Translations under genes and position numbers: made by a program
Assembly (NCBI RefSeq): GCF_055900595.2
Contig: NZ_CM148325.1
Length of the DNA stretch: 64,000 bases
Direction: 5' to 3' (one strand)
Shown here: positions 8,243 to 44,826 of the stretch, piece after piece
Numbering within the stretch: position 1 is the first letter of the stretch
Layout of the letters: every line of letters begins with the position of its first letter
Notes under the pieces: generated by a model
Told to the model about the DNA's origin: nothing
Databases searched by the model: none
What the model saw: the letters and a program-made list of their open reading frames with translations, nothing else

Positions 8243-9820
8243 ATGACGGAAAACATTCATAAGCATCGCATCCTCATTCTGGACTTCGGTTCTCAGTACA
8301 CCCAACTGGTTGCGCGCCGCGTGCGTGAACTGGGTGTTTACTGCGAACTGTGGGCGTGGGATGTGACAGAAGCACAAATTCGTGACTTCAATCCAAGCGG
8401 CATTATTCTTTCCGGCGGCCCGGAAAGCACCACCGAAGAAAACAGCCCGCGTGCGCCGCAGTATGTCTTTGAAGCAGGCGTACCGGTATTCGGCGTTTGC
8501 TATGGTATGCAGACCATGGCAATGCAGTTGGGTGGTCATGTTGAAGCCTCTAACGAACGTGAATTTGGCTATGCGCAGGTTGAAGTCGTAAACGACAGCG
8601 CACTGGTTCGCGGTATCGAAGATGCGCTGACAGCAGACGGTAAACCTCTGCTCGATGTCTGGATGAGCCATGGCGATAAAGTTACCGCTATCCCGTCCGA
8701 CTTCATCACCGTAGCCAGCACCGAAAGCTGCCCGTTCGCCATCATGGCAAATGAAGAAAAACGCTTCTATGGCGTACAGTTCCACCCGGAAGTGACTCAT
8801 ACCCGCCAGGGGATGCGCATGCTGGAGCGTTTTGTGCGTGATATCTGCCAGTGTGAAGCCCTGTGGACGCCAGCGAAAATTATCGACGATGCAGTAGCCC
8901 GTATCCGCGAGCAGGTAGGCGACGATAAAGTGATCCTCGGCCTCTCTGGTGGCGTGGATTCCTCCGTGACTGCAATGCTGCTGCACCGCGCAATCGGCAA
9001 AAACCTGACTTGCGTATTCGTTGACAACGGCCTGCTGCGTCTCAACGAAGCAGAGCAGGTTCTGGATATGTTTGGCGATCACTTTGGTCTGAACATTGTT
9101 CACGTTCCGGCAGAAGATCGCTTCTTGTCAGCGCTGGCTGGTGAAAACGATCCGGAAGCAAAACGTAAAATCATCGGTCGCGTTTTCGTTGAAGTATTCG
9201 ATGAAGAAGCGCTGAAACTGGAAGATGTGAAGTGGCTGGCGCAGGGTACTATCTACCCTGATGTTATCGAATCTGCCGCGTCTGCAACCGGTAAAGCTCA
9301 CGTCATCAAATCTCACCATAACGTGGGCGGCCTGCCGAAAGAGATGAAGATGGGCCTGGTTGAACCGCTGAAAGAGCTGTTCAAAGACGAAGTGCGTAAA
9401 ATTGGTCTGGAGCTGGGCCTGCCGTACGACATGCTGTACCGTCACCCGTTCCCGGGACCAGGCCTTGGCGTTCGTGTGCTGGGCGAAGTGAAGAAAGAGT
9501 ACTGCGACCTGCTGCGCCGTGCTGATGCCATCTTCATTGAAGAACTGCGTAAAGCGGACCTGTACGACAAAGTTAGCCAGGCGTTTACCGTGTTCCTGCC
9601 GGTACGTTCTGTTGGCGTAATGGGCGATGGTCGTAAATACGACTGGGTTGTGTCTCTGCGTGCCGTCGAAACCATCGACTTTATGACCGCACACTGGGCG
9701 CATCTGCCGTACGATTTCCTTGGTCGCGTTTCCAACCGCATTATCAATGAAGTGAACGGTATTTCCCGCGTGGTGTATGACATCAGCGGCAAGCCACCGG
9801 CGACTATTGAGTGGGAATGA
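8243..9820 (+). CDS. guaA: GMP synthase (glutamine-hydrolysing)
   Basis: 525-aa [43 protein letters not shown] ... PPATIEWE; class I glutamine amidotransferase plus ATP-pyrophosphatase regions. Confidence 0.95.
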
Positions 9821-9822
9821 TT
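9809..9822. repeat. attL core (direct repeat GAGTGGGAATGATT overlapping the guaA stop codon)
   Basis: Exact 14-bp copy also at 44813-44826; the left copy supplies the last guaA codons and TGA stop. Confidence 0.55.
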
Positions 9823-10030: not shown

Positions 10031-11245
10031 ATGGAGAGTGACCCGATGCTGACCGATACCAAACTGAAAAACCTCAAAGCGCGGGAAAAACTTTATAAAG
10101 TTGCAGACCGTGATGGGCTGTATGTAACCGTATCTCCCAAGGGATTGGTGACGTTTCGCTATGACTATCGAATCAATGGTCGTCGTGAAACGTTAACTAT
10201 TGGTCGCTATGGTGACGGTATTTCTCTGGCGCAGGCGCGCGAAAAATTAGTGGAAGCCAAAAAACGCGTAAATGCAGGAATATCGCCCGCTGGAGAGAAG
10301 CGTGACGGTAAAACAAAGCGAAAAGAAGAAAAGACACTCCACGATTTTACCGTCAGCTACATGAAACACACCCGGCTGGCGGACAGCACAAGGGCGATGA
10401 AGCAAAGCATTATCGACAGAGACATCACGCCAGTATGGGGGCGCAAGCTGCTGTCAGAGATAACCCCCTCTCTCCTACGTGAGTATTGCGACAAGATAAA
10501 AGCGCGTGGTGCGCCAGCGACGGCGATTCAGGTTCGCAATATCGTTAGTGCGGTATTTAAGTTCGCCGCGCTTCACGGCGACTATTACCCCAATCCTGCC
10601 GAAGAGGTTTTACCGGCTTCAATTGCGACATTCGAAGCGCGCGACAGGGCGCTCAAGCCAGAGGAGATAGGCTGGTTTTTCAATCAGCTTGAACAAACGG
10701 GTACATTACCCACCATCAAGCTGGCCATTAAATTGGTTTTATTAACGATGGTACGTAAAAGTGAACTGCTGAACGCTCCGTGGGGTGAGGTTAATTTTAA
10801 TGCCTGCCTTTGGACGATTGACGCCAGCCGGATGAAGGGATCACGGGATCATAATGTTTATCTGTCCCGGCAGGCACAGGACATTCTGATTGCCCTGAAA
10901 ATGTGCGCAGGAAGCAGTGATTGGGTTTTGCCTTCATGCAATCAGTCGTCGCATAAGACCATGTCGGCGGCGACCTTAAACCGGGTCATTAATCTTACGG
11001 TTAAGCAGGCGCAGGAACGGGGGATCAGGCTGGCGTCGTTTTCCGTTCACGATATGCGCCGAACGGCATCGACGTTATTGCATGAGGCGGGGTTTAATTC
11101 CGACTGGATAGAAAAATGCCTCGCGCACGAGGAAAGAAGCGTCAGAGCCGTTTATAACAAAGCGGAATACGCAGAGCAGCGCCGTGATATGTTGCAGCAG
11201 TGGGCGGATATGGTTGATGGGTGGATCAAGCAATACCGCCCGTAA
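10031..11245 (+). CDS. int: Tyrosine recombinase, P4-type phage integrase
   Basis: N-terminal arm-binding region DGLYVTVSPKGLVTFRYDYRINGRRETLTIGRYG and C-terminal catalytic HDMRRT ... AVYNKAEY (HxxR ... Y) typical of P4/CP4-57 integrases; true start may be the Met at about 10046. Confidence 0.9.
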   Translation: MESDPMLTDTKLKNLKAREKLYKVADRDGLYVTVSPKGLVTFRYDYRINGRRETLTIGRYGDGISLAQAREKLVEAKKRVNAGISPAGEKRDGKTKRKEEKTLHDFTVSYMKHTRLADSTRAMKQSIIDRDITPVWGRKLLSEITPSLLREYCDKIKARGAPATAIQVRNIVSAVFKFAALHGDYYPNPAEEVLPASIATFEARDRALKPEEIGWFFNQLEQTGTLPTIKLAIKLVLLTMVRKSELLNAPWGEVNFNACLWTIDASRMKGSRDHNVYLSRQAQDILIALKMCAGSSDWVLPSCNQSSHKTMSAATLNRVINLTVKQAQERGIRLASFSVHDMRRTASTLLHEAGFNSDWIEKCLAHEERSVRAVYNKAEYAEQRRDMLQQWADMVDGWIKQYRP

Positions 11246-11248
11246 GTA

Positions 11249-11503
11249 CTATGCGGGGATCTTGGTACCAGAGCGCTTTGGGACTTTGGCCAGATTTTTC
11301 TGTACCGCGTTATCAATATGGTGATGGTTATTTTCCTGCCGTGCTTTGAGCCAGCGTTCCACTTCCTCTTTGTCCCACGCGACGGCGCGCTTCGTTAGCG
11401 CAAAACGTTTGGGAAACAGGCCTTTTTGCTCCAACGCATAAATCGTACTTTCAGAGAGTGGCACCATCTGTAAAAGCACGTTTTTTCTAATGGCAATTTT
11501 CAT
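11249..11503 (-). CDS. alpA: AlpA/Vis-family excisionase-type transcriptional regulator
   Basis: Motif LSESTIYALEQKGLFPKRFALTKRAVAWDKEEVERWL matches the AlpA family; adjacent to int. Confidence 0.7.
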   Translation of the reverse strand: MKIAIRKNVLLQMVPLSESTIYALEQKGLFPKRFALTKRAVAWDKEEVERWLKARQENNHHHIDNAVQKNLAKVPKRSGTKIPA

Positions 11504-12314
11504 TGTTTATTCCTTTAATCCAAAGGCACTCAGTTCTGATAACAGATCCTTTTTTACCAGCAGCGGCAGATTGCTTTGTCTCTTTACGCCAGCCGGTTAG
11601 CAAATCGTTATACATTTCGGTGTCGTAGCCGCTGATAACCACGCTTCCTTGTAACCGGGTGACGGTCTCCAGTAAGCGCAGGTGGGCACCATCGTCCATT
11701 TCGTGGCGATAATATTTGTTAGTCAGATTACGGGTGCTATGAACATACGGCGGATCGACAAAATGCAGCGTGTCGGCGGCGTCATGATCCAGAATACACT
11801 GGATGGCATCGCGGTTTTCCACCAGAACCCCTTCAAAACGCTGACCAACGGCGGCCAGATTATCGGGCATACGGCTCCAGATGTGTTGGGCCGTTCCACT
11901 GGCGCGTTTAGTGTCCAGCCGAAAGCCGGTAGTGCCTTTAGTTGCCCCGGCAGAACCGAAGCCCATCGTGGCGCGAATCACTAAACGCCTTGCCTGTTCA
12001 ACAGAATTTTTCCCATAGCGATAGGCCGAAATAAACTCGGTGCGGGAATAGGGTGTCAGGCTGCAGGCTTCAACCAGTCTTTCGCGCAGTTGTGGGGTAC
12101 GAAGAACGGCGAACAGGTTAACGACGTCGCCATCCAGATCGTTGTAAACCTCGGCGTAGCTACGTGGTTTTCTGAGCAGTACGCTGGCTGCACCGCCGAA
12201 GGGTTCCACATAGCATCTGTGGGCCGGAAAGTGGCTAATGATCCACGGAGCTAGTCGCCACTTGCCGCCGTGGTAGCGGATTGCAGGGTGCTTAATCATC
12301 CAGTTTTTCTCCAC
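11487..12314 (-). CDS. DNA adenine (N6) methyltransferase, Dam family (copy 1)
   Basis: SAM-binding motif YVEPFGGAASVLL and catalytic DPPY (FVDPPYVHSTRN). Confidence 0.8.
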   Translation of the reverse strand: MEKNWMIKHPAIRYHGGKWRLAPWIISHFPAHRCYVEPFGGAASVLLRKPRSYAEVYNDLDGDVVNLFAVLRTPQLRERLVEACSLTPYSRTEFISAYRYGKNSVEQARRLVIRATMGFGSAGATKGTTGFRLDTKRASGTAQHIWSRMPDNLAAVGQRFEGVLVENRDAIQCILDHDAADTLHFVDPPYVHSTRNLTNKYYRHEMDDGAHLRLLETVTRLQGSVVISGYDTEMYNDLLTGWRKETKQSAAAGKKGSVIRTECLWIKGINNENCH

Positions 12315-12891
12315 GCCGTTCTACGTTCAGGTGTCGCCACTGCACCGCAATCCGTTTCATCACCGCATTCCCCTCTGGGATCACCTCCTGCGGCTCCTTC
12401 ATCAACATGACCCGCCCCCGAATAACGATCAGCGCTTGTTCCAGCAGGCCATAGTCCAGATAACAGAGATCGGGAATATCCAGTTGCCACACATAGCCAT
12501 TCCATGCTGAAAGTAGCACTTGCGCGGCGGCGCGTCCGCCGCTGGTTTCTGTGAGCGCGATTTTGGCAAGTGTATTGACGGCTGCGCCATATTCCTCTGG
12601 CGTGACGCGGAGTTTCTGCTGGCTGTTATCTTCTTTTGCCAGCGTTAATAATCCAATCGGGTGTAATACGCCCAGCTCTTCCATCTTTTCTTTCAATGTT
12701 GCAGCTGTATTCCATCCAATTCTGAATTTGCGCTGCAGGCGGCTGATACTGATAATGCCTTCCGCCTCGGCCAGTTCGACCGCTTTGGGATAGAGTTCAT
12801 TGAGCCGATATTCGTAATCAGCGAAGGGCGCACCGCTATTCTCTGGCAGGCCAGAGAGTGTTTGTGAATTATTTCCAGAGGATTTCATCAT
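12292..12891 (-). CDS. Hypothetical protein with FtsK-gamma-like winged helix
   Basis: Segment IISISRLQRKFRIGWNTAATLKEKMEELGVL resembles the FtsK gamma-domain consensus (S.S.lQR..rIGynRAarl.e.mE..G); remainder unrecognised. Confidence 0.45.
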   Translation of the reverse strand: MMKSSGNNSQTLSGLPENSGAPFADYEYRLNELYPKAVELAEAEGIISISRLQRKFRIGWNTAATLKEKMEELGVLHPIGLLTLAKEDNSQQKLRVTPEEYGAAVNTLAKIALTETSGGRAAAQVLLSAWNGYVWQLDIPDLCYLDYGLLEQALIVIRGRVMLMKEPQEVIPEGNAVMKRIAVQWRHLNVERRGEKLDD

Positions 12892-12901
12892 AATTTCCTT
12901 T

Positions 12902-15559
12902 TTAACGTTGAAAAACCCAACACTTCACCGTCGCCGGGCGGCGCGGTGCGGCTGGGTAACGGCGGTTAAATTCAGCGTTGATGCCGCTGTTAACCGTTCT
13001 GACTTCAATAAACTTGTGGGTACGGCTGGTTTTTAGCACTCGCTTCAAATCGCTGATCGGCGGGATCTGCTGGCGGCGCTCGGTAGCCAGTTGAATAAAG
13101 TGGTTAAGGTTAACGGCGATAAGCTGTTCATCGCGCGAGTGGTTGAGCTGTGGTTCGTCGTCGCCATCGAGGAAGTCGAAAATATCCCAGAACTCCTGCA
13201 CCAGAGGATGGTCGGCGCTGATGGCCTGTTGGCGCTCCAGACTGAGGCGGATAAACATTTCTCTGGTCGCCTGTAGCTGCTCTTCCGTGACCGGAATAAC
13301 CAGCGCCAGCGCGTCGAGCAGCGCCATAAGCTGGGCGTGGTTTTTAATGATGCGGATATGGCGAATATCTGGGTGGGAGTGAAGTTGCTGCTCGTATAGC
13401 GGGATCTGACGGTTAACGCACTCCAGCACGGCCTGTTCCGCCAGCGCTGCCTTCAGCATAAAGCCGGAAAGCTGTTCTACCGGCAGGCGTTCGAGCTGCT
13501 CGGCAGCGACCTTGGTCTGAGTATTCTGGCCGCTGCGGTCGGTGTACAGGTGAATAATACGTTCCAGCACCGGGTTAGAGGCGCTAACATCGGCGTTTTG
13601 CGCAATCACAATCGCGCCCCGGAACGGCGGTTCATAGGTCTCGTTGCCGCTGTTACGCAGACCGCGAGAACGCACCGACCGCCCGTTATAGGCGGTTTTC
13701 AGCTCTTCCCAATCAAAGCCACGCTGCTTTGCCCCCTCCTGATTACGGTCACCCTCGATCAGCACCACCGGCATATTTGCTACCTGCGCAAAGTTGCGCG
13801 CGCGGGCGGCCAGCGTTGATTTAGACGGATCGAAACCTTCATAGTCGCGTCGGCCCAACAGTTTCCAGAGGAACTCTATCAGCGTGGTTTTACCGCTGCC
13901 GGGTTCGCCAACGATTTCCAGAAATGGAAAGCTCTTGTGCTTGTCGCGGATCTGTTCGGCAAACATCGTCCCAAACCAGTACGCCAGCGCCACAAACCCC
14001 TTTGCGCCAAACGCCTGCCAGAGTAGCTGGGGCCACTGGCTGTCCATCTGTTTTAAATTGTCGTTCAGCGTCAGGCTGACCGACTGGTTCAGGCTTTTAA
14101 GGCTAAGTTTGCCCATGTCGAAGAAGTCTTCTTCGTTGAGTGTGTACAGCCGACCATCGCGAACGGCCAGATCGTTGAACACGTAAGCGCGGTATTCTTT
14201 GCTGTAGCCGATAAAATCAGTGGTCTGGACAGTTTTGATTTTGGGAAGCTGCTTGAGCAGCAACTTATCTAACTGCTGACTGGTGCCGGTGAAGATGCCG
14301 CCCTGCGCGATATGCAGCAGGCGCTTTTTGAATTCTGAGCCGCTGGAAAGTTGGGAGCCGGTGAAGGTGTTTTTTATCGGTGGAGTGTCGTCGGGGAAGT
14401 TAATGCGAAAGTAATACCAGCTTTCGTCGGTAATGGTGTTGGCCTGATAGTAGAGGGCGGTCGGGTAGCAGTTGGCTATCTCAACAACGGCGGCTGACTC
14501 CTGTAGCGCTTTATGTTTGGCTTCTTCTTCGTCCAGCTCCTCTTTGCCGTTATACATCACGTTATCAAAGGCACGCATATAACGGTCAATATCCAGCTTG
14601 AACCAGTACAGGCGGCTGTCGAACTCGAAGTGAAACTCTTTGCGTTCGGTACGCTCATGCATCAGTAATGCTTTGGCATTCGGATTGGGAGCGATCAACA
14701 GTGAACCGTAGTAACGATATTTTTTAATCAGATCCGGGTTTAGCCGATCGCGCTGGTGCAAATCGTTCCAGTCCAGCTTGGTGCGGGAATAGGGCGTTTG
14801 TGCGGCGGTGGAAAGCCAGCCGTCGTCGCGGCTGCGTTTTACCCAGCGGCGGGTGTAATTCATGCCCGCTTTGTCGTTATCCAGCGCCCAGACCAGTAAA
14901 GGACGCTTTTTATCCACGAACAGCGCGGCCAGTTGGCTTAACGCCTGCGCCGGATAGTTGTTACAGGTCATCAGGGAAACGGCGGCAATGCCGTGGTGGT
15001 GCAGGGCGATAGCGTCAAAAATGCCCTCAACCAGCCAGATCTCCTGCTGTTCTTCCAGCTTAAGCGTTGGCAATTGCCACCATAGCCCGCTGTAAGCGCC
15101 GTGAAAATTGGCTTTGCGATCGCCGAAACGCTGTGGGCGGTCAACGATCCGCTCCCACCACACGCCGTCAGCCAGCGGGAAACGCACAGTGGCCGAGCCG
15201 AGATCGCGCCGTGCGTCATAGTAGTTCTCTTGAGCGTAACAGTTACGGAGCAGCGAAAGGTCAAAGCCGCGCATCTCGCGCAGGTAGGCATCGGCGGCGG
15301 CCTGTGGGTTTTCCGGGGTTGGGGGATATCTGTCTGACCAGCTTTCAAATAGATCCGGGTACACCTCTTTGATATGGATTTCGGCATTGCATTTATTCAG
15401 GCGACCGCAGCGCAGTACCCACGGGCTGATGGCGTAGGTGTACAGCTCTTTTTTCTGGCAGTCCGGGCAGACGCCCTGCCGCAGCCAGTCGCCCTGTTCT
15501 TTAAAGGAAAAATCGGCTAGCAGTCGCCGCGTAATTTCCTGATGAAGTTGTGGTTGCAT
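12902..15559 (-). CDS. Replicative primase-helicase (P4 alpha / HP1 Rep-like)
   Basis: N-terminal zinc-binding motif CPDCQKK ... CGRLNKC, TOPRIM-like EGIFDAIALHHHG and LDNDKAG (DxD), and Walker A GEPGSGKTTL. Confidence 0.75.
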   Translation of the reverse strand: MQPQLHQEITRRLLADFSFKEQGDWLRQGVCPDCQKKELYTYAISPWVLRCGRLNKCNAEIHIKEVYPDLFESWSDRYPPTPENPQAAADAYLREMRGFDLSLLRNCYAQENYYDARRDLGSATVRFPLADGVWWERIVDRPQRFGDRKANFHGAYSGLWWQLPTLKLEEQQEIWLVEGIFDAIALHHHGIAAVSLMTCNNYPAQALSQLAALFVDKKRPLLVWALDNDKAGMNYTRRWVKRSRDDGWLSTAAQTPYSRTKLDWNDLHQRDRLNPDLIKKYRYYGSLLIAPNPNAKALLMHERTERKEFHFEFDSRLYWFKLDIDRYMRAFDNVMYNGKEELDEEEAKHKALQESAAVVEIANCYPTALYYQANTITDESWYYFRINFPDDTPPIKNTFTGSQLSSGSEFKKRLLHIAQGGIFTGTSQQLDKLLLKQLPKIKTVQTTDFIGYSKEYRAYVFNDLAVRDGRLYTLNEEDFFDMGKLSLKSLNQSVSLTLNDNLKQMDSQWPQLLWQAFGAKGFVALAYWFGTMFAEQIRDKHKSFPFLEIVGEPGSGKTTLIEFLWKLLGRRDYEGFDPSKSTLAARARNFAQVANMPVVLIEGDRNQEGAKQRGFDWEELKTAYNGRSVRSRGLRNSGNETYEPPFRGAIVIAQNADVSASNPVLERIIHLYTDRSGQNTQTKVAAEQLERLPVEQLSGFMLKAALAEQAVLECVNRQIPLYEQQLHSHPDIRHIRIIKNHAQLMALLDALALVIPVTEEQLQATREMFIRLSLERQQAISADHPLVQEFWDIFDFLDGDDEPQLNHSRDEQLIAVNLNHFIQLATERRQQIPPISDLKRVLKTSRTHKFIEVRTVNSGINAEFNRRYPAAPRRPATVKCWVFQR

Positions 15560-15647: not shown

Positions 15648-15896
15648 TTACGCGATTTTCTGCTTTTGCAGAAATTGCCCGCGTGTGGATAGCGGTATGT
15701 GTATCTTAGGATTCGGGCAACCGCTGGGTACTACCGTTCCCATCACGGTCTCCATCGCGATAAATGAAAACGAACAGTTAACGTTCTTGCACTGGTAATA
15801 GAGCTTACGTACCAGCGGTGACATATATTCGCTGCTGCGAATTATCGCCTTACCGTCGCAGTGTGGGCATTTCATCATGTCCGATCTCCTTACCAC
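15648..15896 (-). CDS. ogr: Ogr/Delta-family zinc-finger late transcription activator
   Basis: CPHCDGKA ... YYQCKNVNCSFSF matches the Ogr/Delta C-x2-C ... C-x4-C zinc finger. Confidence 0.8.
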   Translation of the reverse strand: MVRRSDMMKCPHCDGKAIIRSSEYMSPLVRKLYYQCKNVNCSFSFIAMETVMGTVVPSGCPNPKIHIPLSTRGQFLQKQKIA

Positions 15897-16201
15897 TTTT
15901 AACTAACTGAAACACTAACGCTTTTCGTTAACGGACTGACGAAATAGTGTGATGCCGTTCAAAAAAATGATTCTTGCCATGCTGGACATCGAACGGTTCT
16001 GCTCCAGCGCTAATGCTTACAGTTCCGCGATTTCAGCGGGGAGCAGACGCATTGCCACCGGTTTGTTCGACATCACCCCGCGGGGTGCTCGTGAGCGTAA
16101 GACGTTCTCATTTGTTTTCATGGTGGTATATTGTGGTTATTAACATTACACAATCTATAATTCCCTCAATTGAGTGAATTGTCAATGGTAATTATATCCA
16201 A
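15897..16201. promoter_or_regulatory. Divergent switch region between ogr and the HTH repressor-like gene
   Basis: 305-bp non-coding region with AT-rich tract acaatctataattccctcaattgagtgaattgt (inverted ACAAT ... ATTGT ends) just upstream of the HTH gene. Confidence 0.4.
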
Positions 16202-16540
16202 ATGAAAGAATTTGGCATCCGTTTGAAGGAAGAACGTATCCGACTTGGCCTTGATCAAGACGGCTTTGGACAACTTGGGGGCGTGAAGAAAAACGCACAA
16301 AGTAACTATGAGAATGGACTGCGCAAGCCGGACAGTGACTATCTTGCTGGCATAGCGGCAGCGGGAGTTGATGTTCTGTATGTTCTAACAGGCAACCGCA
16401 CGCCTGTGGCTACGTTGTCCAGTAAAGAGAGTGTGTTGGTGGAGAACTATCGTTCTGCTACGCCAGAACACCAGTCCACCCTTGACACGGTTAGCGCTGC
16501 GCTTGCGCAACCGGGAGTAGGGAAAGCAGCTAAGGGATAA
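16202..16540 (+). CDS. HTH XRE/Cro-C1-type regulator, probable prophage immunity repressor
   Basis: N-terminal HTH FGIRLKEERIRLGLDQDGFGQLGGVKKNAQSNYENGLRKP; divergent from the early/late regulators; GC content like the phage backbone. Confidence 0.65.
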   Translation: MKEFGIRLKEERIRLGLDQDGFGQLGGVKKNAQSNYENGLRKPDSDYLAGIAAAGVDVLYVLTGNRTPVATLSSKESVLVENYRSATPEHQSTLDTVSAALAQPGVGKAAKG

Positions 16541-16580
16541 CGAGTAGAATGAATTTGGTTATTGTCTGTATGGAGGCAAA

Positions 16581-17153
16581 ATGAAGTTGAATAATCTGGT
16601 TGCTCTTTACAGGAACATGACAGAGCAAAAATTGGATAGGGTTAAATTCCCATACAGACACAATAATTTACATTTTGATGTATTTTTCTTTATTGATGGA
16701 AAACCGTTTGAGCTTCTTTTCGGAGCATTAGGCGCTAATCTTTGCTTTCGTCTAAAAGTCGAGAAGGGATTCGTCATAAATCCTAATCTGGGAAGTGAGA
16801 CTTATAAAGAATTATGCAAGGCGCTAGGTTTGAAATATGACCCTGCCAATCCATTTAGAACAAGTAAGTTTTTTGAAGATTTTGATGGGAAAATCCCTAC
16901 ATCGGTTACTGTTAAGAATAAGGCAAAATATACTGATATTGCTGTGCATGTCAGGGATGTTGAAGAAGCAGACAGAATATATTTCTGTGGATGGAAAAAC
17001 AACAATGAAGAAAAGAGTCATGTTACTGAAGATAATTTAAAGAAAACGAAAGAGTTTTTAGGGTATCAGGCTTTTCTTGTTTGTAAGGAAAAGAATATTA
17101 GCAGTAGATGGACTGATTTAGAAAATAAAGCAAAAGATTTTTATTTACCATAG
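16581..17153 (+). CDS. Hypothetical protein (cassette gene 1), no recognisable motif
   Basis: 190-aa ORF with RBS ggagg upstream, AT-rich codon usage, 40 bp downstream of the HTH gene. Confidence 0.5.
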   Translation: MKLNNLVALYRNMTEQKLDRVKFPYRHNNLHFDVFFFIDGKPFELLFGALGANLCFRLKVEKGFVINPNLGSETYKELCKALGLKYDPANPFRTSKFFEDFDGKIPTSVTVKNKAKYTDIAVHVRDVEEADRIYFCGWKNNNEEKSHVTEDNLKKTKEFLGYQAFLVCKEKNISSRWTDLENKAKDFYLP

Positions 17154-17167
17154 GATTGTGAGGTTAT

Positions 17168-18316
17168 ATGTCTGATATTTCATTAGGGTGCGTGGTTGTT
17201 CATAGGTTGATAAAAGAGCAACATAAAGATTTCGATCACTCAAAACCATATAGTCGCCGTGATACGGTTCTTGACCGAAATAATGAAATCGTAATTAAAC
17301 TAGTGTCCAGTATAGCCGCATTGTATGGTAAAAAATCTAATAGCTCGCATTATGGTATATTTAATTTAGATGAAACACGCAGGGGGCCTTTTCCAGCGGA
17401 ATTTGATAAATATCGGAATGATACATCCAAGAAGTTAGACGATGAATTGTTTATAGGATTATCAAAAAATGTTATGCATCAGTTATATATTGAGGCAAAG
17501 GATCGACCTGCTGCATCAGGAGGATTACTTCTTTTTGCTGATTATATCAGTAAATCCGTGCGTTACTTTCTTATTGCAATGATTAAGCAAAAGGAAGGTA
17601 TAGTTATTAGTGATAAATTAGAGCCAAAGGAGTTAGAGCATCTTGATCTGGCAAAACTAAACCAGGCGGCACGAATAAACTATGATTTGTATGATAAATA
17701 TATTTCCGCTGATGAGAATGAAAGACAGGATGTTAATTATTTAAGTTTTGTTAGTCCCAGTTCTAACCAGACAACTTCAGGGTATTTCATTACTGCCTTA
17801 GGTTGTGATAAAGGTAATACATCAACTAAAGCTACGAGTAATTTAATTAATGAATCTTTTAACTTCTTCAGAAATCATCAAGAATTAAAGGATAATGCCC
17901 GTAAATTTAAAAATGAAATTATTGAGTATTTATTCGATTGTTCTGAAAATAACATTTCAGCTAAGCTCTCTGTTGTTAGTGAGATGGCGGCGAAGCATAT
18001 GGTTAATTTAGAAGATGACATTAAAGATAAATTGTCAGAAGAATTATATGCTCATTTGAATAGTGAAAGTATTCGTGTGCCTGTGGAATTTAGGGTAAGC
18101 AAATCAGTAGTTAAGAAAAACAGAAATATTAAATATACAAGTGATAATGTTAATTTTGAGTTTAAATCTAGTTTACTAGGCAATACTCTTGATAATGAGA
18201 TATGCTATAATAAGAAAACTGGACATTTAACTTTTACTCGGATTACTCCTGAGAAAAAAAGTGAAATAGCTCAATTGCTTGATGAGTTAATAAAAGAAAG
18301 AAATAGCGAAAAATAA
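17168..18316 (+). CDS. NdpA/YejK-like nucleoid-associated-protein family member (cassette gene 2)
   Basis: N-terminal VVVHRLIKEQH and SGGLLLFADYISKSVRYFLIAMIK align by eye with YejK IALHQLIKRDE and [24 protein letters not shown] (sequence recalled from memory); further colinear similarity towards the C-terminus. Confidence 0.5.
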   Translation: MSDISLGCVVVHRLIKEQHKDFDHSKPYSRRDTVLDRNNEIVIKLVSSIAALYGKKSNSSHYGIFNLDETRRGPFPAEFDKYRNDTSKKLDDELFIGLSKNVMHQLYIEAKDRPAASGGLLLFADYISKSVRYFLIAMIKQKEGIVISDKLEPKELEHLDLAKLNQAARINYDLYDKYISADENERQDVNYLSFVSPSSNQTTSGYFITALGCDKGNTSTKATSNLINESFNFFRNHQELKDNARKFKNEIIEYLFDCSENNISAKLSVVSEMAAKHMVNLEDDIKDKLSEELYAHLNSESIRVPVEFRVSKSVVKKNRNIKYTSDNVNFEFKSSLLGNTLDNEICYNKKTGHLTFTRITPEKKSEIAQLLDELIKERNSEK

Positions 18317-18318
18317 GG

Positions 18319-18957
18319 TTGCTTAATATGTCATGTTTTGAAACGGTTGTTGAGCTTTTCAGATATGTAGGGCGTCCTAAATTTGATGCTATTAATAATC
18401 GTTTTTCAGCAACTATTTCTTATGATGCTCATATATATGAACTCTTAGTTTCTTTGCAACCTCATACAGCGTGGGGAGAAATTGAAGAGATTGTCATTGA
18501 TGATGTGGATATAGATGTTGATGATAGCCTTCCCGCTAAAGGAACATCAATAACACTGACAATCTCTATATCAACTGGAGCTAGTGAGTCATTTTTTATC
18601 GATATTAAAGATCTAATTCAAAAGTCTCCGATGTTAAATAGAGGTATTTTAAGAAAGTCTTTTTACTTGGTTGAGGAAGATTTTTATTTTAATGAAGGAA
18701 TGGTTGAGGGATTAGCAAAAATACCAGAACTATCTGTTTTAAAGAATCTTTGTGATTTTATTTTATGTCTATCAAAAGTTGCACACTACAGCAATAGTAA
18801 AAGTGATGATGTATGCCATAAGTTAGTTTTCTTGAAAAATACTAATGCTAAGTCATTACCTTTAATTATTGAAACTAATGTTGATTATTCACTTCTTTTA
18901 ACAGGTATTAAGGATTTAAAAATCATCGAATCTTTTTCTGATGAAAAAAAGCTATAA
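18319..18957 (+). CDS. Hypothetical protein (cassette gene 3)
   Basis: 212-aa ORF starting 2 bp after gene 2; acidic stretch IDDVDIDVDD; no recognisable motif. Confidence 0.5.
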   Translation: MLNMSCFETVVELFRYVGRPKFDAINNRFSATISYDAHIYELLVSLQPHTAWGEIEEIVIDDVDIDVDDSLPAKGTSITLTISISTGASESFFIDIKDLIQKSPMLNRGILRKSFYLVEEDFYFNEGMVEGLAKIPELSVLKNLCDFILCLSKVAHYSNSKSDDVCHKLVFLKNTNAKSLPLIIETNVDYSLLLTGIKDLKIIESFSDEKKL

Positions 18958-19001
18958 CGGATGATAATTATTTTGAGCGAAAAGGGATTTTCATTAATAC
19001 G

Positions 19002-19583
19002 GTGGTCGATTTTCTTGAATCAATCGATGTAAAGAAACAGTTTCATTTTTTATTCTGTGAGTGGGATGAATTTCTAAAACTATACCATAATAACCTCGGT
19101 GTATATCTTAGTGGTTTTTCATTTCATAAAGTAAGAAAGGAAGTGGCAGAGGCAGAAGCTAATTTAGCTGAGCGTTTTTCAAAAATAATGTCAGACATGA
19201 TAGCTAAGCTTTTAGGTATTCCTGTTTCTTTGGTTGCTACTTTTGGCATGATAAAATTAAATACCCTGCCGGAAATGTTAGTGGTTTTTTTAGGTGTATT
19301 GCTCACGTCGATAATTATGTTTTTTATTGTAAGAAGTCAATACACACAGTTTAGGATGATTTGTGATGCTAAAGATATTATATTTTCCCCATTAGTGAAA
19401 AAATCTGTAGGTTATACAGAAGATTTGAAAAAATTAGTATGCAATGCAAAGGATAATTTAGACAAAAATCAGGTCATGTTAAATCGTTACCTTCTTTTCT
19501 TTCAATGCTTATGCTGGATTCCGACAGCCTTAGGTGGTGGAATGATCTTAATGGCTATTATGGTTCATTTAGGATTACTATAA
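19002..19583 (+). CDS. Predicted membrane protein with two hydrophobic helices (cassette gene 4), putative effector
   Basis: Hydrophobic segments LLGIPVSLVATFGMI ... LVVFLGVLLTSIIMFFIV and LLFFQCLCWIPTALGGGMILMAIMVHLGL; 3' end overlaps the convergent gpD stop by 6 nt. Confidence 0.5.
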   Translation: MVDFLESIDVKKQFHFLFCEWDEFLKLYHNNLGVYLSGFSFHKVRKEVAEAEANLAERFSKIMSDMIAKLLGIPVSLVATFGMIKLNTLPEMLVVFLGVLLTSIIMFFIVRSQYTQFRMICDAKDIIFSPLVKKSVGYTEDLKKLVCNAKDNLDKNQVMLNRYLLFFQCLCWIPTALGGGMILMAIMVHLGLL

Positions 19584-44812: not shown

Positions 44813-44826
44813 GAGTGGGAATGATT
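44813..44826. repeat. attR core (direct repeat GAGTGGGAATGATT)
   Basis: Exact copy of 9809-9822; followed by what looks like the displaced native guaA terminator. Confidence 0.55.

What the first reader, a model, noticed from the sequence alone, without database searches (positions are those of the whole stretch)
12292..12891. FtsK-gamma-like winged-helix protein embedded between the methylase and the primase-helicase
The 199-aa ORF contains a segment matching the FtsK gamma DNA-recognition domain as I recall it, but lacks any translocase motor. A stand-alone gamma-like domain in a phage early operon could recognise KOPS-like motifs or interfere with host FtsK/XerCD, which is relevant to prophage stability.
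Basis: inference. Interest (0 to 1): 0.4.

Follow-up and report, generated by a model that had tools for sequence, protein, structure and literature searches.

The report
Motor-less FtsK-gamma/DUF7673 prophage accessory protein
A P2-family prophage next to guaA encodes a small early protein in which a wing-less copy of the DNA- and XerD-binding "gamma" domain of the FtsK chromosome pump is fused to a mobile-element domain of unknown function (DUF7673); public databases wrongly name it "DNA translocase FtsK", and its role is untested.

Summary
ORF 12292-12891 (-) encodes 199 aa. Residues 31-78 match Pfam FtsK_gamma (47.2 bits, cut-off 30.6), and there is no translocase motor.

- Residues 103-186 are DUF7673 (PF24720), and this is the conserved core. 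Close relatives of the prophage carry a 123-125 aa DUF7673 protein without gamma. An exhaustive search of 1.84 billion representative proteins found the gamma+DUF7673 fusion only in this E. coli cluster.
- The element is not P4-like. It is a complete ~35 kb P2-family prophage in the guaA 3' end, with a phiCTX/RSY1-type primase-helicase.

Phage RSY1 lacks the gene, and distant homologues sit in ICE-like contexts, so it is an accessory gene rather than a core replication gene.

The gamma module has three helices and no wing. It keeps all six E. coli FtsK residues that contact XerD, but Thr replaces R1297 and the KOPS-reading R1300. The window has no dif-like site and no KOPS excess. DUF7673 folds confidently as an all-alpha domain with no structural analogue.

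Best reading: an early accessory protein whose gamma module tethers DUF7673 to DNA (confidence 0.42). The rival, XerD binding, stands at about 0.22. I class it as a new domain architecture of catalogued parts, of moderate interest.

The parts
12292..12891 (-). Gene for the 199-aa two-domain protein (gamma-type HTH + DUF7673)
   Evidence: ORF list; Pfam hits to both domains; identical protein on more than 600 E. coli contigs in the same context; full-length AF2 model with mean pLDDT 87.7.
12894..12899 (-). Ribosome-binding site AAGGAA, 5 nt upstream of the ATG. The primase stop codon TAA is at 12902-12904.
   Evidence: Read directly from the sequence.
12829..12891 (-). N-terminal tail, aa 1-21, predicted disordered
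   Evidence: AF2 pLDDT 55-59 and no secondary structure.
12658..12828 (-). FtsK-gamma-type three-helix HTH, aa 22-78 (Pfam match aa 31-78), without the beta-hairpin wing. Motif QRKFRIGWNTAAT corresponds to FtsK 1288-1300, QRQFRIGYNRAAR.
   Evidence: Pfam PF09397, 47.2 bits, profile positions 4-51 of 63; PDB alignments; AF2 helices 22-44, 49-56 and 60-72 at pLDDT 91-96, with no strands; residue table.
12601..12657 (-). Linker helix, aa 79-97. From about aa 82 it is homologous to the N-terminal helix of the short DUF7673 proteins, so this is the fusion junction.
   Evidence: Protein comparison with GMF054 and P0003; AF2 helix 79-94 at pLDDT 60-78; DNA junction alignment.
12322..12600 (-). DUF7673 domain, aa 98-190: an all-alpha bundle with the conserved motif TSGGRAAAQVLLSAWNG...VIRGR...EP
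   Evidence: Pfam PF24720, 60.5 bits; phrog_6694, E 2e-35; AF2 pLDDT 94.4; dN/dS about 0.07 against L038.
12902..15559 (-). Upstream gene: Zn-ribbon/Toprim/P-loop primase-helicase of the phiCTX/RSY1 type
   Evidence: Pfam Toprim_2; phrog_1139 matched over the full length; 58% identity to the Ralstonia phage RSY1 primase.
11487..12314 (-). Downstream gene: Dam-like D12 N6-adenine methyltransferase. The likely ATG is at 12299, overlapping the ORF end by 8 nt.
   Evidence: Pfam MethyltransfD12; PADLOC MTase_II, E 1e-57; gene calls in L031.
11249..11503 (-). AlpA-type excisionase/regulator, the last gene of the leftward unit
   Evidence: Pfam Phage_AlpA, E 7e-13.
15648..15896 (-). Ogr/Delta zinc-finger late activator, at the head of the same leftward unit
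   Evidence: Pfam Ogr_Delta, E 1e-19; promoter-like sites on the minus strand at 16218-16157.
10031..11245 (+). Prophage tyrosine integrase
   Evidence: Pfam Arm-DNA-bind_3, Phage_int_M and Phage_integrase.
9809..9822 (.). attL core GAGTGGGAATGATT, spanning the guaA stop codon
   Evidence: Exact 14-bp repeat shared with 44813-44826.
44813..44826 (.). attR core. The prophage spans about 9.8-44.8 kb.
   Evidence: structural genes lie between the two cores.

Best explanation
The ORF is a real, expressed-looking gene of a ~35 kb P2-family prophage integrated in the 3' end of guaA. It is the third gene of a leftward early unit: ogr, primase-helicase, this gene, Dam-like methylase, alpA.

The protein has two modules. 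The conserved, selected core is the C-terminal DUF7673 domain. This is an all-alpha domain confined to mobile elements (prophages with this primase type, and ICE-like regions). It has no obvious catalytic motif and no structural analogue, so I read it as a binding or adaptor domain. The N-terminal module is a recently acquired FtsK-gamma-type helix-turn-helix that has lost the wing.

Most likely mechanism (inferred, not shown): the gamma module is a targeting device that tethers the DUF7673 core to DNA, with low or non-KOPS specificity. The protein would act early after induction or infection, as a dispensable establishment or host-takeover factor rather than as part of the replication machinery. 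In many other family members a C-terminal DnaJ/Anti-TRAP-like zinc finger sits in the equivalent add-on position.

Shown: domain identities, architecture, context, dispensability across relatives, the mosaic origin of the gamma module, and the residue pattern. Inferred: DNA tethering, early expression, and the accessory role.
For: - Both domains score above the Pfam cut-offs.
- The gene is tightly packed with its neighbours. Minus-strand promoter-like sites lie at 16218-16157, and the scan found no terminator-like site on that strand between the primase gene and alpA.
- Short DUF7673 orthologues without gamma occupy the same slot in prophages whose primases are very closely related (E. coli GMF054, Salmonella, IMG/VR loci).
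- All four combinations of gamma present/absent and methylase present/absent occur.
- dS is 0.037 in the gamma part and 0.32 in the DUF7673 part between two gamma-bearing lineages. dN/dS of the DUF7673 part is about 0.07.
- The exhaustive search found about 300 DUF7673 cluster representatives, and none except this cluster carries gamma.
- Of 21 IMG/VR loci with DUF7673, 15 carry the same primase family within 6 kb. RSY1, which has the same primase type, goes straight from primase to excisionase. Distant homologues sit beside T4SS genes and AlpA, beside SSB/TopoIII/ParA, beside integrases, and near TacAT toxin-antitoxin genes.
- Eighteen of 100 family members carry a DnaJ-type zinc finger instead.
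- Gamma-type HTHs recur in at least seven other PHROG families, and in a phage small terminase where DNA binding is the proposed role (PMC8190038).
Against: - No experiment or DNA target supports DNA binding.
- The gamma module lacks the wing. It has Thr at 1297, which is R or K in 13 of 14 other gamma domains, and Thr at 1300. Its net charge is slightly negative.
- Isolated single gamma domains bind KOPS poorly, and three are needed per site (PMC3384302).
- The pattern of lost DNA-side basic residues with all XerD contacts kept fits the XerD rival better.
Confidence: 0.42

Rival explanations
1. XerD-directed factor. The gamma module binds host XerD rather than DNA. It would either activate XerCD-dif recombination without FtsK, giving topologically complex products, or compete with FtsK gamma. 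Either way it would disturb chromosome dimer resolution and segregation as a host-takeover function, with DUF7673 acting as an oligomerisation or effector part, as the dimerisation domain of XafT does.
For: - All six FtsK residues that contact XerD (Q1288, R1289, R1292, I1293, G1294, N1296; Table 1 of PMC5052618) are identical here (Q53, R54, R57, I58, G59, N61).
- R1292 and N1296 vary in other gamma domains: R in 5 of 14 and N in 2 of 14.
- The 9-residue peptide RQFRIGYNR activates recombination when tethered to XerC (PMC5052618). Here it reads RKFRIGWNT, and the R1297 that differs was an inert control in that study.
- Isolated gamma activates XerCD-dif in vitro (PMC3130261).
- The DNA-reading features are the ones that have been lost: the wing, R1297 and R1300.
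- An MGE-encoded XerD activator has a precedent in XafT of TLC-phi (PMC9226527).
Against: - The same residues form the family's core HTH motif and also contact DNA (PMC5052618), so their conservation may reflect ancestry from a proteobacterial FtsK.
- Overall identity to E. coli gamma is only 41%.
- The prophage has its own integrase and no dif-like site.
- Close relatives do without gamma.
- FtsK-XerD activation shows species specificity (PMC5052618).
Confidence: 0.22
2. Replication accessory of the primase-helicase, acting as an origin-binding or loading/copy-control partner. The gamma HTH would recognise the phage origin.
For: The gene lies immediately downstream of the primase with a 10-nt gap. 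DUF7673 lies within 6 kb of the same primase family in 15 of 21 viral loci. Another homologue follows a DUF3631 gene.
Against: - RSY1 has this primase type and no DUF7673.
- In other prophages 1-3 kb of unrelated genes separate the two, or DUF7673 lies upstream of the primase.
- In three sampled ICE-like or island loci the listed Pfam annotations show no adjacent primase, or only an unrelated DnaG-type one about 6.7 kb away.
- The DNA-binding module is absent from most members of the family.
Confidence: 0.15
3. Counter-defence or anti-restriction factor. DUF7673 would neutralise a host defence protein early, working alongside the adjacent orphan methylase. Gamma would be an add-on that localises it to incoming DNA.
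For: - Early position next to an orphan Dam-like methylase.
- The family is confined to MGEs. One case (L004/L005) lies beside ssb and topoisomerase III, which resembles a conjugative leading region (my reading, not tested).
- Presence/absence varies among close relatives.
- The domain is small and mildly acidic (pI about 5.1-5.4) with no evident catalytic motif.
Against: There is no match to any known anti-defence family. PADLOC holds defence proteins only, so its silence is uninformative. There is no fold analogue. The case is purely contextual.
Confidence: 0.13
4. Transcriptional regulator of the lysis-lysogeny or early-late switch, acting through the HTH.
For: An HTH protein in an early operon near ogr and alpA.
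Against: Relatives lack the HTH. Dedicated regulators are already present (Ogr, AlpA, and a Cro/CI-type HTH at 16202). The gamma family is not known as a regulator family.
Confidence: 0.05

Closest known systems
FtsK gamma subdomain (E. coli FtsK 1261-1329; PDB 2J5P, 2VE8/2VE9, 5DCF)
   Same: Helices H1-H3 align without gaps at 41% identity. The QR.FRIG.N.AA motif, all six XerD-contact residues, and E1303/E1306 are kept.
   Different: There is no alpha/beta motor and no wing hairpin. R1297 and R1300 are Thr. The domain is fused N-terminally to DUF7673 and is phage-borne. No KOPS enrichment was found.
XafT, the Xer activation factor of the Vibrio cholerae satellite phage TLC-phi (PMC6744903, PMC9226527)
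   Same: It is an MGE-encoded small protein with no motor, which combines an XerD-interacting part with a second (dimerisation) domain. This is the functional model for the XerD rival.
   Different: It is not homologous to this protein: Pfam reports only FtsK_gamma and DUF7673 here. TLC-phi integrates at dif through XerCD, whereas this prophage has its own integrase, an att site in guaA, and no dif-like site.
Phage FtsK_gamma proteins: the small terminase of Bacillus phages Sam46/Sam112, and separate gamma ORFs in phages (PMC8190038); PHROG families 13700, 22882, 4212, 6576, 36563, 6152 and 29917
   Same: A gamma-type HTH is recruited as a module into phage proteins. The literature states that the role of phage gamma genes is unknown.
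   Different: The fusion partners differ (Terminase_2 or unknown regions), and the Sam46/Sam112 domain covers 60 residues (aa 11-70), against 48 matched here. A gamma+DUF7673 architecture was not found elsewhere.
Short DUF7673 proteins (PF24720, phrog_6694), e.g. WP_089558834 of E. coli GMF054, and Salmonella 123-aa proteins
   Same: They are orthologous over aa ~92-199 at 81-85% identity, and occupy the same slot between primase and alpA.
   Different: They lack the 80-aa gamma module. More distant members carry instead a C-terminal 2x CxxCxGxG zinc finger, or tandem DUF7673 domains.
P4 satellite / P4-like elements
   Same: An integrase, an AlpA-type regulator, a Toprim primase-helicase and an Ogr/Delta-type zinc finger are clustered together.
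   Different: A full P2-type structural module is present (portal, TerL, TerS, scaffold, capsid, sheath, tube, tape measure, gpD). The primase is of the phiCTX/RSY1 type.

Membership tests
FtsK_gamma domain family (PF09397) | Profile match above Pfam's gathering score | tested here: met
   47.2 bits against 30.6, E 1.8e-12, aa 31-78. FtsK gamma chains are the top PDB hits.
FtsK_gamma domain family (PF09397) | Three-helix HTH core with the H2-H3 motif QR.F.IGYNRAA | tested here: met
   The motif here is QRKFRIGWNTAA. AF2 gives helices 22-44, 49-56 and 60-72 at pLDDT 91-96.
FtsK_gamma domain family (PF09397) | C-terminal beta-hairpin wing (profile positions about 52-63; G.v.P...G..REVL) | tested here: not met
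   The HMM alignment stops at profile position 51 of 63. The sequence is about 6 residues shorter here and lacks the conserved RE. AF2 shows no strands, and the chain runs into a low-confidence helix 79-94.
FtsK/SpoIIIE DNA translocase (the name NCBI gives this protein) | Alpha/beta RecA-like motor with Walker A/B motifs, and an N-terminal membrane/linker region | tested here: not met
   The protein has 199 aa. The only match to the 1355-position FtsK model is at positions 1284-1337, scoring 23.5 bits against a cut-off of 1566. There is no P-loop family hit.
KOPS-reading gamma (E. coli/Pseudomonas type) | Recognition-helix residues R1300, E1303 and E1306 (the KOPS-blind triple, PMC2680272), plus the wing | tested here: not met
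   The equivalents are T65, E68 and E71. R1297 is also Thr, and the wing is absent. KOPS count in the window is 7 against 5.9 expected, on mixed strands.
XerD-activating gamma | XerD-contact residues Q1288, R1289, R1292, I1293, G1294 and N1296 (PMC5052618, Table 1) | tested here: met
   All six are identical at the sequence level.
XerD-activating gamma | Physical binding to XerD and activation of XerCD-dif recombination | not testable with these tools
DUF7673 (PF24720) | Profile match above the gathering score over the whole 85-position model | tested here: met
   60.5 bits against 27, profile positions 2-85 of 85. phrog_6694, E 2e-35. The AF2 all-alpha model has pLDDT 94.4.
P4-like satellite | No structural genes of its own, relying on a helper phage; sid/psu/delta-type capsid-redirection genes | tested here: not met
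   A complete P2-type head, packaging and tail gene set lies between the att cores. I did not search for sid or psu.
IMEX (integrative element exploiting Xer) | A dif-like attachment site and no integrase of its own | tested here: not met
   No site lies within 3 mismatches of dif. The best arm-wise match is 7 of 22 arm positions off. The element has its own tyrosine integrase and a guaA att core.

The most novel reading that the evidence does not exclude
This would be a temperate-phage-encoded, motor-less mimic of FtsK gamma that has shed its DNA-reading parts (the wing, R1297 and R1300) but kept the whole XerD-activation surface. It would bind host XerD, either to trigger FtsK-independent XerCD-dif recombination or to block FtsK's access. 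That would uncouple chromosome dimer resolution from cell division during induction. It would be the first Xer modulator on a mobile element that is homologous to gamma itself, and it would be fused to an uncharacterised MGE domain (DUF7673) that may oligomerise it.
Probability: 0.2. Interest if true: 0.75.

Novelty: new variant of a known kind. Interest (0 to 1): 0.4.

Why it matters
- Annotation: hundreds of E. coli assemblies label this protein "DNA translocase FtsK". It is a 199-aa prophage accessory protein and should be renamed.
- A natural experiment on an unknown domain: closely related prophages carry DUF7673 with or without a gamma module, and with or without a neighbouring methylase. 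Isogenic comparisons are therefore straightforward.
- A testable link to XerCD: the gamma module keeps every XerD contact while losing DNA-reading features. This makes it cheap to test whether phages tamper with XerCD/FtsK using a copy of the host's own activation domain. A positive result would extend the XafT paradigm beyond IMEXs.
- If the tests are negative, this is one more case of a mobile HTH module being reused in a phage protein.

Tried and rejected
- PADLOC gave no hit for the protein.
- A search with the N-terminal 95 aa in the word-indexed database returned only a fragment of the same protein. blastn of the gamma DNA against 5,426 complete E. coli genomes found no match, so no donor was identified.
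- tblastn against cultured phages returned only gamma-only hits in Listeria phage records.
- The dif search (<=3 mismatches, then arm-wise) and the KOPS count were both negative. I therefore rejected a Xer-site role for the prophage itself.
- I looked for a separate gamma ORF in the same slot of related loci, as a possible fusion precursor. None was found in L001-L029.
- The search for related loci with the 100-sequence alignment failed because no stretch was conserved enough. It worked with a 16-sequence alignment.
- MAFFT misplaced free gamma fragments onto DUF7673 columns. For the full-length model I used rows that join a gamma fragment to an unrelated DUF7673 homologue. The inter-domain geometry in that model (pTM 0.61) should therefore not be trusted.
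- A naive ungapped comparison suggested a different primase in L038. BLASTP showed 94% identity, and the apparent difference came from a truncated gene call.
- The structural papers on gamma-KOPS (Lowe 2008, Sivanathan 2006) are not held. The KOPS contact residues therefore rest on the KOPS-blind mutant paper only.
- The P4-like satellite reading was rejected.
Full report
**1. The observation**

The ORF at 12292-12891 on the minus strand encodes 199 aa. It starts 10 nt after the stop codon of the upstream primase-helicase gene and has an AAGGAA ribosome-binding site. In identical public loci, the gene callers place the methylase ATG 8 nt before its stop codon.

Pfam reports two families, both above their curated cut-offs:
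- FtsK_gamma (PF09397): aa 31-78, 47.2 bits against 30.6, E 1.8e-12.
- DUF7673 (PF24720): aa 103-186, 60.5 bits against 27.

FtsK gamma chains are the best PDB sequence matches (2J5P, 2VE8, 5DCF). The NCBIfam FtsK model is touched only at positions 1284-1337 of 1355, so there is no motor.

**2. The element**

The neighbourhood is not a P4-like satellite. The gene order is:
- guaB and guaA
- a tyrosine integrase (+)
- on the minus strand: alpA, a Dam-like D12 methylase, this gene, a Zn-ribbon/Toprim/P-loop primase-helicase, and ogr
- on the plus strand: a cargo block
- the P2-type genes gpD, gpU, tape measure, gpE, tube, sheath, and later terminase small subunit, capsid, scaffold, terminase large subunit and portal

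A 14-bp direct repeat, GAGTGGGAATGATT, spans the guaA stop codon at 9809 and recurs at 44813. This delimits a prophage of about 35 kb.

The primase belongs to the type found in Ralstonia phage RSY1 (Peduoviridae) and in Pseudomonas and Citexvirus records, at 53-58% identity over its full length. Consensus promoter-like sites face leftwards at 16218-16157, and the scan found no terminator-like site on the minus strand between the primase gene and alpA. This fits a single early unit, but it is only a consensus scan.

**3. Which part is conserved**

The exact protein is in NCBI under the name "DNA translocase FtsK". It is encoded on more than 600 E. coli contigs, and the context is the same in every locus read.

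Every other homologue is DUF7673 only:
- 123-125 aa proteins, 81-85% identical over aa ~92-199, in Salmonella and E. coli prophages.
- About 300 cluster representatives in an exhaustive phmmer scan of 1.84 billion proteins. None of them carries gamma.

Among prophages with very closely related primases, all four combinations occur:

| Example | gamma | methylase |
|---|---|---|
| this window | yes | yes |
| L038-L040 | yes | no |
| L007, L008 | no | yes |
| E. coli GMF054 | no | no |

BLASTP gives 94% primase identity between the window and L038.

Between the window and L038, the gamma part differs at 4 of 237 nt (dS 0.037). The DUF7673 part differs at 25 of 318 nt (dS 0.32, dN/dS about 0.07). 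The gamma module is therefore a recently shared mosaic piece, and DUF7673 is under strong purifying selection. On the left, the junction lies at the primase stop codon. On the right, it lies within the N-terminal helix of DUF7673.

**4. Is it a replication protein?**

DUF7673 lies within 6 kb of the same primase family in 15 of 21 IMG/VR loci. Three observations argue against a core replication role:
- RSY1 runs directly from primase to excisionase, with no DUF7673.
- In other prophages the two genes are separated by unrelated genes such as a coiled-coil protein and a CsrA-like protein (the latter recognised by eye, not by a profile search), or they occur in the reverse order.
- More distant homologues sit in ICE-like or island contexts: after a VirB4/TrbL/VirB8/TrbI cluster and before alpA; after ssb and topoisomerase III and near parA; next to integrases; near TacA/GNAT toxin-antitoxin pairs; and after a DUF3631 gene.

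I therefore read it as an accessory gene of mobile-element early or establishment regions.

**5. Structure**

Eighteen of 100 members carry a C-terminal DnaJ/Anti-TRAP-like 2x CxxCxGxG zinc finger. A few are tandem DUF7673 proteins.

In the full-length model (pLDDT 87.7), the gamma part consists of three helices (22-44, 49-56, 60-72; pLDDT 91-96). There are no strands. A low-confidence helix (79-94) leads into DUF7673. The alignment behind that model used artificial gamma+DUF7673 rows, so the domain arrangement is not informative.

**6. Reading the gamma residues**

Numbered against E. coli FtsK (ORF residue n corresponds to FtsK n+1235):
- The XerD-contact residues listed in Table 1 of PMC5052618 are Q1288, R1289, R1292, I1293, G1294 and N1296. 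All six are identical here.
- The peptide RQFRIGYNR, which that paper shows to be sufficient for activation when tethered to XerC, reads RKFRIGWNT here.
- The KOPS-blind triple R1300/E1303/E1306 (PMC2680272) reads T/E/E here.
- R1297 is also Thr.

I compared 14 other gamma domains retrieved by the searches:
- 1288, 1289 and 1294 are nearly invariant.
- 1292 is R in 5 of 14.
- 1296 is N in 2 of 14.
- 1297 is R or K in 13 of 14.

The module thus keeps the variable XerD-contact positions in the E. coli state, while losing a normally basic residue and a KOPS-reading residue of the recognition helix, together with the wing.

Two cautions apply. The contact residues also touch DNA (PMC5052618). The sample is small and taxonomically distant, so ancestry from a proteobacterial FtsK could explain the pattern. 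Overall identity to E. coli gamma is 41%.

The window has no dif-like site. KOPS motifs number 7 against 5.9 expected and lie on both strands.

**7. Mechanism**

The most probable reading (0.42) is a dispensable early protein in which the gamma HTH tethers the DUF7673 core to DNA with low specificity. This follows the way gamma-type HTHs are reused in other phage proteins (PMC8190038).

The main rival (0.22) is that gamma targets XerD. Isolated gamma activates XerCD-dif in vitro and yields tangled products (PMC3130261). A phage-encoded XerD activator with a second domain has a precedent in XafT (PMC9226527).

A primase accessory role (0.15), counter-defence (0.13) and transcriptional regulation (0.05) are the remaining options. 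None can be settled without experiments; the decisive ones are listed separately.

**8. Novelty and score**

Both domains are catalogued, and phage gamma ORFs have been noted before as being of unknown role (PMC8190038). New here are the unique gamma+DUF7673 architecture, its mosaic origin, the residue pattern, and the correction of the annotation. I class it as a new variant of a known kind, with interest 0.4.

Noticed in passing
window 18319-19583 (+): The 418-aa hypothetical gene that follows the nucleoid-associated-like gene in E. coli GMF054 is split here into ORFs of 212 and 193 aa. The cause is a single-base indel near 18945-18951, and the DNA is otherwise 99.7% identical. It is either a pseudogene or a sequencing error.
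   Followed up: partly
window 16202-19583 (+): A cargo block lies between ogr and P2 gpD. It comprises a Cro/CI-type HTH (weak RmrA/CapH-like match), DUF6037, an NA37 nucleoid-associated-like protein (phrog_3767) and a hypothetical gene. It diverges from the early unit at promoter-like sites 16105-16218. Its position suggests a lysogeny-expressed moron or defence hotspot, but PADLOC gave no system hit.
   Followed up: partly
window 12292-12891; public records of the same protein: NCBI names the 199-aa protein 'DNA translocase FtsK' (MULTISPECIES, Escherichia). This rests only on the 48-residue gamma match and is a misannotation that has spread across hundreds of assemblies.
   Followed up: yes
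window 11487-12314 (-); L007, L008, L038-L040, L001: The Dam-like orphan methylase is present in some closely related prophages and absent from others, independently of the gamma module. Protein P0011 is a deletion fusion of DUF7673 to the C-terminal half of the methylase.
   Followed up: partly
proteins P0125, P0168, P0181, P0157, P0148 (metagenomic): These are small stand-alone proteins made only of two or three tandem FtsK_gamma domains, with no motor. They are natural counterparts of the engineered covalent 3-gamma protein that binds KOPS tightly (PMC3384302). Their function is unknown.
   Followed up: no
DUF7673 family (P0016, P0017, P0022, P0035, P0042 and others): About a fifth to a third of DUF7673 proteins end in a DnaJ/Anti-TRAP-like 2x CxxCxGxG zinc finger. 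P0037 and P0056 are tandem DUF7673 proteins. P0080 and P0089 carry long unrelated N-terminal regions.
   Followed up: partly
window 9809-9822 and 44813-44826: The 14-bp att core GAGTGGGAATGATT overlaps the guaA stop codon. Integration regenerates the guaA 3' end, and the prophage spans about 35 kb.
   Followed up: yes
L023 5419-5637 and L025 5279-5497: By eye, a CsrA-like 72-aa ORF (MLILTRRVGETL...) sits in the early operon between the primase and DUF7673 of related environmental prophages. No profile search was run on it. It would be a possible phage-borne post-transcriptional regulator.
   Followed up: no
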